Of a stretch of 64,000 bases of DNA, positions 61,115 to 62,888 are shown one piece after another. How positions within the stretch are numbered: the first letter of the stretch is position 1; each line of letters begins with the position of its first letter. Under the pieces are notes generated by a model, which searched no databases, had not been told where the DNA came from, and saw nothing but the letters and a program-made list of their open reading frames with translations. A program made the position numbers and the translations under genes. The stretch comes from Candidatus Bathyarchaeota archaeon (GTDB lineage: Archaea > Thermoproteota > Bathyarchaeia > 40CM-2-53-6 > RBG-13-38-9), in NCBI GenBank assembly GCA_963807605.1, contig CAWECG010000003.1, forward strand, positions 640,001-704,000. Reading direction: 5' to 3'.

Positions 61115-61714
61115 TTAAGAGATTCGTGTGCTTTTCTGGAAGGTTATTAATGAATCGTCTTTGTAAGAAATCGTTCCAGCATGAACAAACCTTGCCTGCT
61201 CTACCTCTTGGACGACTTCCGTCTTGTTGATGATTGGGGGACCGACCCTTCCAGAGAATACGCTCCTACCGGTCTTCTCAACAATGATCAGTCTACCCGG
61301 TGGCTTCATGATCCTAAAGAACTCAGTAAGAACTCTTATCCTGTCTTCCACTTCATGAAAAACATGTACTAGAAGGATAATGTTAACGCTCTCATCCTCA
61401 AGCTCAATCTCTGTTCCGTCAGTCCTCAGGAGCTCTACGGTCACACCACTTCTCTTAGCGTAAGGGGTGACCTTATCAAGCATCTTTGAAGAGATGTCTA
61501 TCCCGATTGTTCTATCTGCAACTTTAGCTATGGGGATCGTGAAGAAACCAGTGCCGCAGCCGAAATCTATGACAACGTCAGTCGGCTTTATCTTCAGCTT
61601 TTGGATAAGCGGCTCAGGAGGATAAAGAAGCCTTCTAATCGGGTTGCTTAGTATAAAGGCCATTCTCTCTGGGAAGCGCCTGTGTATATTAAAGGCGTGA
61701 GCCGATTTGACCAC
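61115..61714 (-). CDS. Class I SAM-dependent methyltransferase
   Basis: DFGCGTG, GIDIS, VFHEV, RIMKP.G; start GTG 61714 or ATG 61663 (longer ORF runs into IS). Confidence 0.9.
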   Translation of the reverse strand: MVKSAHAFNIHRRFPERMAFILSNPIRRLLYPPEPLIQKLKIKPTDVVIDFGCGTGFFTIPIAKVADRTIGIDISSKMLDKVTPYAKRSGVTVELLRTDGTEIELEDESVNIILLVHVFHEVEDRIRVLTEFFRIMKPPGRLIIVEKTGRSVFSGRVGPPIINKTEVVQEVEQARFVHAGTISYKDDSLITFQKSTRIS

Positions 61715-61725
61715 TACTAGCGCGC

Positions 61726-62829
61726 GGGCTTGTCCCGATATTCTTTGAGTTGACACGGAAAGATCCATATGGTTTGAGCCCCACACCCTCCTACTTGGAG
61801 GCGATTCCAGATAGAAGGGTACGAGACTCTGGAGTCACTGCTGAGTAATCTGGATTTATCGTTTGTTGAACGCCTCATTGTTAGCTGCTATCATCAAGAC
61901 GGTCCAGGTAAACCTCCACGAAACCCCTTAGGACTCTTCAAGGCACACCTCGCCAGACGCTACCTGAGAATGAGCAGTCTGCGTGATTCTGAACGCCACT
62001 TATGTCATGATGAGAGGCTACGTGACATATGCGGCATAAGATATGAGGAGCCAGCGTACGGTAGGACGGTACTCTCAAGATTCAACCAGCGGCTAGGCGC
62101 AAGAAGACTAAGACGCATAGTAAACAAACAGGTCAAGAAGTTGCTGAAGAAACACATAGCAAAACCCAGGATAGTCGCTATGGACGCTACCTTCATCAAA
62201 GCCTACAGCAGACGCAACATAAACAATAGAACAGGCTTCAGCGACCCTGAAGCCCGTGTAGGAAGAGCCTACCGCACATACAGCCTAGGTTACAAACTAC
62301 ACCTCACAGTCGATGCAGACACAGGGACACCCCTAGCCTTCCTCATCTCACCAGCAAACACTAACGAGAAGAAACTCAGCATACCACTCCTCAAAATGAC
62401 AGTTAAAACCACAGCAATCAGAATCCGACAGCTAACCGCTGACAGTCAATACTCCAGCAACAGACTCAGAGAGACCGCTAAAAGACACAAAATCAAGACC
62501 GCGATACCCTACCCAGCCAACCAGAACCCTGAAAGACAAAACATCCTCAGAGTAACCAGCGACTTCAAAACACACGGCCCAGAAAACCTCAAACGCATCT
62601 ACAAGAAACGCTCAACCATAGAGCTCGTCTTCGCATCACTCAAAGAACACCTCACCCTCAACAATCACAAAACAAGAGGCTTAGAAAACATCACCATCCA
62701 CACCAGCTACTGCATACTATGCCTACTCTACACCATAGAAGCCTCACACAACACCAAACAACCCACCAAAACCAGAAGCATAACACACTGGACAAACCTA
62801 ACATGAAAACGCTAATATCGGGACAACCC
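61726..62829 (+). mobile_element. Insertion sequence (IS5/IS1182-like DDE), about 1.1 kb, 7-bp target duplication AGCGCGC
   Basis: TIRs GGGCTTGTCCCGATATT (61726-61742) and AATATCGGGACAACCC (62814-62829); AGCGCGC at 61719-61725 and 62830-62836. Confidence 0.9.
61769..62806 (+). pseudogene. DDE transposase with in-frame TGA at codon 3
   Basis: ATG GTT TGA GCC...; frame then open through G.GKPPRNP..LFKA (DUF772-like), MDATFI, ADSQY, RSTIELVFASLK. Confidence 0.8.
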
Positions 62830-62888
62830 AGCGCGCTATAGCTTATTCTGTCGATGAGAGGTTAGGGGTGTTGCTTGAAGTTCATTTC

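What the first reader, a model, noticed from the sequence alone, without database searches (positions are those of the whole stretch)
61718..62838. The IS is inserted precisely into the palindrome and duplicates it
Seen: TAGCGCGC|GGGCTTGTCCCGATATT...AATATCGGGACAACCC|AGCGCGCTA. Removing the element and one AGCGCGC copy restores TAGCGCGCTA, a member of the dispersed motif family. Established: several IS families, including IS1182 members, target palindromic REP-like sites. Inference: this transposase is sequence-specific for the motif and each insertion multiplies it. That gives a mechanism for both motif spread and passenger-gene delivery by composite or IS-end-bounded units.
Basis: partly seen in the sequence, partly recalled or inferred. 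Interest (0 to 1): 0.85.

Follow-up and report, generated by a model that had tools for sequence, protein, structure and literature searches.

The report
Jumping gene targeting a GC palindrome
A small archaeal insertion sequence sits exactly in the middle of a 12-base palindrome (TAGCGCGCGCTA) that litters the spaces between genes of this Bathyarchaeia genome. Unoccupied sites show that it seeks out this motif and duplicates only its central four bases, so it is a real and unusually strict case of a known kind of target-specific jumping gene.

Summary
The described sequence is there. A 1105-bp insertion sequence (window 61726-62830, 17-bp imperfect inverted repeats, DUF772 + DDE transposase) lies between TA-GCGCGC and GCGCGC-TA.

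Target specificity is strongly supported:
- All 7 copies in this genome, and 49 of 53 distinct flanks of close relatives, abut GCGCGC, usually preceded by TA.
- Two insertions have matching unoccupied alleles in the same natural population. These read TA-GCGCGCGC-TA and TA-GCGCGCGC-TT.

The target is the 12-mer TAGCGCGCGCTA, which has 25 copies in the genome against about 0.05 expected and is 92% intergenic. It is not TAGCGCGCTA, which does not occur in the window. The duplication is most likely the central 4 bp (GCGC), as in IS5, not 7 bp.

The claim that insertions multiply and spread the motif, or deliver passenger genes, is not supported. The motif far outnumbers the IS copies, and several related genomes are rich in it although this transposase was not found there. 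No composite unit was seen. Where the motif comes from stays open.

An earlier follow-up in this scan (e1-2993296) reached the same reading on another Bathyarchaeia genome.

The parts
61718..61719 (.). TA, outer left half of the palindromic target
   Evidence: Among 53 distinct flanks of this IS clade, position -8 is T in 37 and position -7 is A in 45.
61720..61725 (.). GCGCGC left flank: host GC (61720-61721) plus the left copy of the inferred 4-bp duplication GCGC (61722-61725)
   Evidence: All 15 IS ends in the genome abut GCGCGC. Empty alleles of two related insertions carry (GC)4.
61726..62830 (+). Insertion sequence, 1105 bp; copy A1 of 7 in the genome
   Evidence: Copies A1-A3 differ by 1-3 nt, copies B4-B7 by 0-2 nt, and A differs from B by about 90 nt.
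61726..61742 (+). Left terminal inverted repeat GGGCTTGTCCCGATATT
   Evidence: It matches the right repeat at 15 of 17 positions.
61769..61777 (+). ATG-GTT-TGA, in frame and directly before the transposase reading frame
   Evidence: ATG-NNN-TGA occurs in 15 of 18 distinct left ends of the clade, and the TGA in 18 of 18. How translation gets past it is unknown.
61778..62806 (+). Transposase reading frame, 342 codons open from stop to stop; first ATG only at 61970
   Evidence: Pfam DDE_Tnp_1 1.6e-26, plus part of DUF772. NCBIfam IS1182 scores 132 bits and IS5 94 bits, both below cut-off. P0001.
62814..62830 (-). Right terminal inverted repeat (reverse complement TGGGTTGTCCCGATATT)
62831..62836 (.). 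GCGCGC right flank: right copy of GCGC (62831-62834) plus host GC (62835-62836)
62837..62838 (.). TA, outer right half of the palindromic target
61115..61714 (-). Class I SAM-methyltransferase gene; its candidate GTG start (61714-61712) lies 11 nt from the IS end
   Evidence: Pfam Methyltransf_11 1.1e-20. The ortholog in the same-genus genome starts at the equivalent GTG. The start assignment is an inference.

Best explanation
This is a young, probably active copy of an IS5-like DDE insertion sequence of Bathyarchaeia. It is 1105 bp long, has 17-bp imperfect terminal inverted repeats and encodes one transposase of about 340 aa.

Its transposase, presumably acting as a symmetric multimer, recognises the host's dispersed 12-bp palindrome TA-GC-GCGC-GC-TA. 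It makes 4-bp staggered cuts around the central GCGC and joins the element there. Repair of the gaps duplicates GCGC, so every copy ends up between TAGCGCGC and GCGCGCTA. The predicted empty site of the window copy is ...CTAC-TAGCGCGCGCTA-TAGC....

Shown: the specificity for the motif and the (GC)4 core of unoccupied sites. Inferred: the 4-bp stagger, the multimeric recognition and the activity of this particular copy. The motif is a pre-existing, lineage-wide intergenic repeat that the IS uses as a landing site, much as REP-targeting IS do in bacteria.
For: 1. Seven full copies and one solo end in the genome all abut GCGCGC, with unrelated outer flanks.
2. In a survey of the genome, relatives and 78 metagenome loci, the close clade has 53 distinct flanks. 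49 end in GCGCGC, with A at -7 in 45 and T at -8 in 37. A sister clade (41% aa identity, 7 copies in this genome) has 50 of 65.
3. Two filled/empty pairs come from one natural population.
   - Ga0315296_10045976 reads ...AAGATA-GCGCGC|IS. Ten other contigs, identical over 1148 nt of flank, read ...AAGATA-GCGCGCGC-TTCC.
   - The same-genus MAG contig JAPKYM010000369.1 reads ...GACG-TA-GCGCGC|IS. About a dozen other contigs read ...GACG-TAGCGCGCGCTA-GACT.
4. Duplication length:
   - A 4-bp direct repeat fits 35 of 39 complete elements and a 6-bp repeat only 26 of 39. One sister-clade copy has the non-palindromic pair ACGC/ACGC.
   - In two contigs the ends of two different IS are separated by only GCGC. 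In one of them the IS right flank is GCGCGC, which excludes 6 bp.
   - With 6 nt of GC run on each side and an 8-nt core when empty, the duplication is 4 bp.
5. The target is abundant. TAGCGCGCGCTA has 25 sites against about 0.05 expected, and A(GC)4T has 106 against about 1.3. 92% are intergenic, against about 15% for control hexamers.
6. IS5 itself makes a 4-bp palindromic duplication, YTAR (PMC5009759).
Against: - The right junctions of the two insertions that have empty alleles were not recovered. The 4-bp duplication is therefore deduced from other copies, not read at one event.
- No empty allele of the window copy itself was found.
- Because GC runs repeat, a 2-bp duplication fits the direct-repeat test about as well (36/39). 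It is disfavoured only by the (GC)4 empty sites.
- Four elements fail the 4-bp test by one mismatch.
- One distant relative has (GC)4 on both sides.
- Paralogs of the flanks of two sister-clade copies carry no GC run at the corresponding position. The motif is therefore not always ancient at occupied sites, and its origin is unexplained.
- The transposase frame has no ordinary start codon. Activity is inferred only from near-identical copies.
Confidence: 0.8

Rival explanations
1. One reading: the target is the 10-mer TAGCGCGCTA with a (GC)3 core, and the IS duplicates 6-7 bp of it (AGCGCGC or GCGCGC).
For: In this genome all 7 copies have identical GCGCGC on both sides, which fits a 6-bp repeat. 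TAGCGCGCTA occurs 9 times in the genome against about 1 expected.
Against: - Both recovered empty alleles have an 8-bp core, not a 6-bp one.
- 13 of 39 complete elements contradict a 6-bp repeat.
- Two IS ends are separated by only 4 nt.
- The seventh base (A at 62830) varies with IS subfamily and belongs to the inverted repeat.
- The 10-mer is absent from the window.
Confidence: 0.05
2. GCGCGC is part of the element, giving a true length of 1117 bp with GC-run termini. The element inserts at TA-like sites with no duplication or a 2-bp one, and the dispersed (GC)4 motifs are scars left when it excises.
For: - GCGCGC is invariant at both ends and extends the inverted repeat.
- Paralogs of the flanks of two sister-clade copies read straight through without any GC run, for example TAATC|GAGAGAG against TAATC-GCGCGC-IS-GCGCGC-GAGAGAG.
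- A P-type ATPase gene fragment is cut off exactly at a motif that its intact relative lacks.
- (GC)4 runs are about 16-fold enriched, while (GC)3 runs are near expectation.
- An earlier follow-up on another genome read the runs as traces of mobile DNA (e1-2993295).
Against: - TA/TA is not a duplication. Three of 7 copies have unequal dinucleotides (TA/TT, TA/TC, TC/TA), including a copy that differs from its sisters by 1-3 nt.
- Flanks vary in relatives: ACGCGC, GCGTGC, and direct ACGC/ACGC.
- Two different IS ends share a single GCGC, so it cannot belong to both.
- The filled alleles are single contigs among 10 or more empty ones from many samples, so the (GC)4 state is the older one there.
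- DDE transposases of this type normally make duplications (general knowledge).
Confidence: 0.07
3. One reading: insertions of this IS multiply and spread the motif, and composite or IS-end-bounded units deliver passenger genes, which creates the motif-bounded gene modules.
For: - The motif sits at gene-module boundaries. Homology blocks between this genome and a same-genus population end at or within 4 nt of motifs.
- Short derivatives of the IS exist, so ends can be mobilised in trans: a 199-bp one and an internally deleted one.
Against: - No pair of like IS copies brackets genes in this genome. The nearest pair is two different IS 1.9 kb apart.
- There are 640 (GC)n runs against 14 IS copies.
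- A(GC)4T is enriched (16-63 copies) in seven genomes of the family where this transposase was not found. It is rare (0-4) in three genomes of one genus, two of which carry the transposase and the third an IS end. These are MAGs, so absence of the IS is weak evidence.
- An insertion adds only a local half-site.
Confidence: 0.08

Closest known systems
IS5 of Escherichia coli (IS5 family, IS5 group)
   Same: - Size of about 1.1-1.2 kb.
- One transposase of about 330 aa with DUF772 + DDE_Tnp_1.
- Short terminal inverted repeats.
- A 4-bp palindromic target duplication; YTAR in IS5 (PMC5009759).
- JGI annotates relatives as 'IS5 family transposase'.
   Different: - It scores below NCBI's IS5 model cut-offs (94 against 140 bits).
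- The target is GCGC embedded in a 12-bp palindrome, with far stricter specificity than YTAR.
- It is archaeal (Bathyarchaeia).
- It has an in-frame TGA at codon 3 and no ordinary start.
IS1272 and other IS1182-family members that target palindromes
   Same: - The best NCBIfam hit by score is IS1182 (132 bits).
- Both insert into palindromic DNA. PMC5678879 cites Siguier et al. for palindrome targeting in the family.
   Different: - IS1272 recognises stem-loop structures of any sequence, replaces (deletes) them and makes no duplication (PMC5678879). Here a defined sequence is recognised, both halves are kept and 4 bp are duplicated.
- The protein has 342 aa, not 450-500.
- The IS1182 match is fragmentary and far below the cut-off of 270 bits.
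REP-targeting insertion sequences of bacteria (IS1397, ISPpu9/ISPpu10, ISPa11, ISPsy8, ISRm22)
   Same: Every copy lies inside one abundant, intergenic, palindromic host repeat that is far more numerous than the IS. This gives a 'safe haven' insertion strategy (PMC1525189).
   Different: - Those IS belong to other families (IS3, IS110 and others; from memory) and occur in Proteobacteria.
- REPs are 20-40 bp imperfect palindromes. Here the repeat is a 12-bp perfect palindrome with an alternating GC core in an archaeon.
- The function and origin of this repeat are unknown.

Membership tests
IS5 family (IS5 group) | Transposase with an N-terminal DUF772 region and a DDE_Tnp_1 catalytic domain, about 320-340 aa | tested here: met
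   PF01609 1.6e-26 over residues 65-252 of the 278-aa ORF. PF05598 scores 18.7 bits on that truncated ORF and is precomputed on full-length relatives. The open frame has 342 codons.
IS5 family (IS5 group) | Score above NCBIfam's curated cut-off for an IS5 equivalog | tested here: not met
   NF033581 scores 94.1 bits against a cut-off of 140, although the match runs end to end (residues 19-315 on profile 3-281/285).
IS5 family (IS5 group) | 4-bp target duplication, palindromic (YTAR for IS5) | tested here: inconclusive
   4 bp is the best fit. It matches 35/39 elements, the empty sites have a (GC)4 core, and there are 4-nt shared spacers. It was not read at both junctions of one event. The sequence is GCGC, not YTAR.
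IS5 family (IS5 group) | Y-(2)-R-(3)-E-(6)-K signature around the catalytic E, and two upstream D residues | tested here: met
   Read directly in P0001...AMDATF......TADSQY......YKKRSTIELVFASLK.... Assigning these as the catalytic residues rests on my knowledge of IS4/IS5 transposases, not on a structure.
IS1182 family | Score above NCBIfam's curated cut-off for the IS1182 equivalog | tested here: not met
   NF033551 scores 132.5 bits against a cut-off of 270, in 3 separate stretches.
IS1182 family | Long transposase (about 450-500 aa) with the DDE_Tnp_1_6 C-terminal domain | tested here: not met
   The frame has 342 codons. PF13751 scores 21.9 bits against a cut-off of 25.1. The usual length is from memory and from the 488-position NCBIfam profile.
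REP-type palindrome-targeting IS (a functional class, not a protein family) | All or nearly all copies lie in one dispersed palindromic host repeat, at a fixed position in it | tested here: met
   15/15 ends in this genome and 49/53 distinct flanks in the clade. Both empty alleles show the intact repeat.
REP-type palindrome-targeting IS (a functional class, not a protein family) | The repeat exists independently of the IS | tested here: inconclusive
   Seven motif-rich genomes of the family had no match to this transposase. They are incomplete MAGs in which repeats are often unassembled, and paralog comparisons leave the motif's origin open.

The most novel reading that the evidence does not exclude
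The IS clade is not only a user but the maker of the palindrome. On this reading the (GC)4 sites are scars of insertion-excision cycles, or GC runs carried along with the element. This IS family would then be the engine behind the motif-bounded, heavily shuffled gene modules and the motif-flanked gene truncations of this Bathyarchaeia family.

Evidence that leaves this open:
- Paralogs of two occupied sites lack any GC run.
- A gene fragment ends exactly at a motif that its intact relative lacks.
- Only (GC)4 runs are strongly enriched, not (GC)3 runs.
Probability: 0.1. Interest if true: 0.85.

Novelty: new variant of a known kind. Interest (0 to 1): 0.5.

Why it matters
It gives a clean natural example, with filled and empty alleles, of a DDE transposase that reads a 12-bp palindrome. 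This is far stricter than the YTAR preference of IS5.
- It is a candidate for studying how IS4/IS5-type transposases choose targets, and for site-directed insertion tools in archaea.
- It corrects the reading of the motif. The IS is a marker of, and a guest in, a lineage-specific hyper-abundant intergenic palindrome of Bathyarchaeia.
- The function and origin of that palindrome are unknown, and they are the more interesting open problem.
- For annotation, the GCGCGC beside these elements is host DNA, and IS-flanked (GC)3 halves should not be counted as separate motif copies.

Tried and rejected
- Empty site of the window copy, cross-species. The same-genus genome G001 has both flanks, but on different contigs and at 75-87% identity. 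The region next to the methyltransferase start is not alignable at base resolution.
- The copy beside a tRNA. Downstream regions in five relatives are unrelated.
- Paralogs within the genome spanning any of the 7 junctions: none found.
- Exact-pattern scan of metagenome contigs for the joined flanks of the window copy: no match.
- Neighbour-protein look-ups. One for the window copy found nothing. Several for metagenome copies found nothing or only filled alleles.
- Right junctions of the two polymorphic insertions were not recovered in five attempts.
- A TA dinucleotide duplication was considered and rejected, because 3 of 7 copies have unequal dinucleotides.
- An alternative IS boundary shifted by one base was rejected, because it breaks the ACGC/ACGC copy.
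- Genome-wide TGA recoding as the explanation for the in-frame TGA was rejected. TGA is the commonest stop of long ORFs, 384 of 989.
- A literature search for the motif string found only primers.

Full report
**What is there.**

Reading the window confirms the quoted letters:
- TA at 61718-61719 and GCGCGC at 61720-61725.
- An element from 61726 to 62830.
- GCGCGC at 62831-62836 and TA at 62837-62838.

The element is 1105 bp. Its ends are 17-bp inverted repeats, GGGCTTGTCCCGATATT on the left and the reverse complement TGGGTTGTCCCGATATT on the right. They match at 15 of 17 positions without an indel.

One long frame is open from 61778 to 62806, 342 codons.
- Pfam finds DDE_Tnp_1 (1.6e-26) and part of DUF772.
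- NCBIfam gives IS1182 at 132 bits (cut-off 270, three fragments) and IS5 at 94 bits (cut-off 140, end to end).
- Database relatives are mostly unnamed. Where named they are 'IS5 family transposase' or a Bathyarchaeia transposase.
- The organism is a Bathyarchaeia MAG (record titles).

**Copies and flanks in the genome.**

The assembly (2.65 Mb, 5 contigs) holds seven full copies and one solo end.
- Three copies, including the window's, differ by 1-3 nt.
- Four others differ from each other by 0-2 nt and from the first group by about 90 nt. Both subfamilies therefore moved recently.
- All 15 ends abut GCGCGC, and beyond it the flanks are unrelated.
- The two bases outside GCGCGC are TA in most cases, but not always and not equally on both sides (TA/TT, TA/TC, TC/TA). 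TA is therefore a preferred half-site, not a duplication.
It is the last base of the right inverted repeat.

**A second IS and a wider survey.**

A related 1126-bp IS has ends TAGCCTCTTGCAATATT, 41% protein identity and 7 copies. It is also embedded in GC runs, but its flanks vary. A 4-bp direct repeat fits 6 of its 7 copies, including a non-palindromic ACGC/ACGC pair. A 6-bp repeat fits only 3.

I then collected relatives from GTDB genomes and JGI metagenomes and extracted the ends automatically. Results:

| Measure | Result |
|---|---|
| Close clade, distinct flanks ending in GCGCGC | 49 of 53 |
| Close clade, A at -7 | 45 of 53 |
| Close clade, T at -8 | 37 of 53 |
| Sister clade, distinct flanks ending in GCGCGC | 50 of 65 |
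| Complete elements fitting a 4-bp direct repeat | 35 of 39 |
| Complete elements fitting a 6-bp direct repeat | 26 of 39 |
| Complete elements fitting a 2-bp direct repeat | 36 of 39 |

The sister clade more often has a longer GC run.

In two contigs, the end of a sister-clade element and the left end of a close-clade element are separated by only GCGC. In one of them the right flank of the close-clade element is GCGCGC. The GC run therefore cannot belong to both elements, and a 6-bp duplication is excluded there.

**Empty sites.**

Look-ups of neighbouring proteins found two insertions whose unoccupied alleles exist in the same natural population.

1. Contig Ga0315296_10045976 reads ...AAGATA-GCGCGC followed by the IS left end. 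Ten contigs from ENA, JGI, Logan and NCBI are identical over all 1148 nt of the left flank. They read ...AAGATA-GCGCGCGC-TTCCAAC....
2. The same-genus MAG contig JAPKYM010000369.1 reads ...GACG-TA-GCGCGC followed by the IS left end. About a dozen other contigs read ...GACG-TAGCGCGCGCTA-GACTCC....

The unoccupied target thus has an 8-bp (GC)4 core, and in one case it is the perfect 12-mer palindrome. Complete copies carry six GC-run bases on each side, so the duplicated stretch is 6 + 6 - 8 = 4 bp, the central GCGC. The right junctions of these two particular insertions could not be recovered. The 4 bp is therefore a deduction across copies, not a reading at one event.

**The motif.**

Counts in this genome:

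| Sequence | Observed | Expected |
|---|---|---|
| TAGCGCGCGCTA | 25 sites | about 0.05 |
| A(GC)4T | 106 sites | about 1.3 |
| Exact (GC)4 runs | 246 | about 15 |
| Exact (GC)3 runs | 371 | near expectation |

- 92% of A(GC)4T sites lie outside crude ORFs, against about 15% for control hexamers.
- The window has four exact 12-mers and three with one mismatch, against 0.03 expected.
- A(GC)4T is enriched in several genera of the same family (119, 63, 44, 40, 32, 30, 29, 28 and 16 copies). It is at background (0-3) outside the family.
- This transposase family was found in only five of the 30 relatives searched. Seven motif-rich genomes had no match. Three genomes of one genus have almost no motif (0-4); two of them carry the transposase and the third an IS end.
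- With the caveat that MAGs lose repeats, the motif looks independent of the IS.

**How it most likely works.**

A DDE transposase of IS5 architecture recognises the palindrome TA-GC-GCGC-GC-TA symmetrically. It cuts with a 4-bp stagger around the centre and inserts.
- This is the IS5 pattern of a 4-bp palindromic duplication (YTAR, PMC5009759), extended to a 12-bp site.
- In strategy it resembles the REP-targeting IS of bacteria (PMC1525189).
- It differs from IS1272 of the IS1182 family, which replaces stem-loops of any sequence without duplication (PMC5678879).
- An insertion turns one (GC)4 site into two (GC)3 halves at the same place. It does not spread the motif.
- No composite unit was found.

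**What remains open.**

- Paralogs of the flanks of two sister-clade copies read through the insertion point without any GC run.
- A 64-aa P-type ATPase fragment in the related population ends exactly at a motif that the intact relative in this genome lacks.
- Homology blocks between the two lineages end at or within 4 nt of motifs.

Something therefore places (GC)4 at junctions. Whether that is this IS family, through scars or carried flanks, or another system, I could not decide. I give the IS-as-maker reading about 10%.

**Relation to earlier notes.**

First-stage notes on this genome describe the same palindrome and other copies of both IS. I re-tested those points here. A follow-up on another Bathyarchaeia genome (e1-2993296, seen after my own analysis) reports the same conclusion: GC-run halves are split and partly duplicated host DNA. 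These are AI notes, not independent evidence.

Noticed in passing
window 61769-61777; also L047, L049, L050, L052, L053, L055, L057, L059, L070, L089: The transposase frame has no ATG, GTG or TTG before codon 65, and in the 92% subfamily even that ATG is missing. Directly upstream and in frame lies ATG-GTT-TGA. ATG-NNN-TGA is kept in 15 of 18 distinct left ends (70-100% identical elements), and the TGA in all 18. The sister IS has an ordinary ATG at the aligned position. TGA is the commonest stop in this genome (384 of 989 long ORFs). This suggests local stop read-through, re-initiation or an odd start as a brake on transposase synthesis.
   Followed up: partly
G000 C5:37846-38971, C1:343581-344706, C1:359521-360646, C1:381542-382667, C4:41602-42727, C3:246507-247632, C3:1079171-1080296: A second, related IS of 1126 bp (41% protein identity, ends TAGCCTCTTGCAATATT) has seven copies, all in GC runs. 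Its more variable flanks give the clearest support for a 4-bp duplication (ACGC/ACGC at C3:246507).
   Followed up: yes
window 8671, 29465, 38237, 45659 (exact); 9513, 24097, 63585 (one mismatch): These are unoccupied copies of the target palindrome TAGCGCGCGCTA in the window. Genome-wide the motif is about 500-fold enriched and 92% intergenic, and it is confined to several genera of one Bathyarchaeia family. Its function is unknown.
   Followed up: partly
L139:1055-1286 against G000 C1:472337-475391: A 64-aa N-terminal fragment of a P-type ATPase in the same-genus population stops exactly at a (GC)4 motif. The intact relative of about 1000 aa in this genome has unrelated sequence, with no GC run, at that point. 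Gene order differs strongly between the two lineages, and homology blocks end at motifs.
   Followed up: partly
G000 C1:359521-360646 against C4:179105-179510; C5:37846-38971 against C5:30350-30812: Paralogs of the DNA flanking two copies of the second IS run through the insertion point without any GC run (TAATC|GAGAGAG; ...CTTCTCAAAGAGGAC...). At those loci the motif itself is an insertion relative to the paralog.
   Followed up: partly
L024:336-534 (G001 contig C251); L015:1515-2086 (G012 contig C74): Non-autonomous derivatives of the IS: a 199-bp element with both ends, flanked by TA-GCGCGC and GCGCGC-TA, and an internally deleted copy of about 540 bp.
   Followed up: partly
window 61712-61725: The IS lies 11 nt upstream of the candidate GTG start of a SAM-methyltransferase gene (61115-61714, minus strand). 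It has probably separated the gene from its promoter.
   Followed up: no
G000 C3:1083303-1083440: Another copy of the IS lies 11 nt after the CCA end of an intron-containing tRNA gene.
   Followed up: no
L041 (DATLAV010000246.1): One relative of the IS (41% identity, same GC-run flanks) lies on a contig binned as Patescibacteria. This is probably a binning error, possibly a transfer.
   Followed up: no
G000 C3:256525-256824 (right flank of the copy at C3:256825-257941): A stretch of about 50 bp next to this copy recurs at several other loci (83-96% identity). It contains an inverted repeat around GCGCGCTATAGC. It is a separate small repeat family.
   Followed up: no
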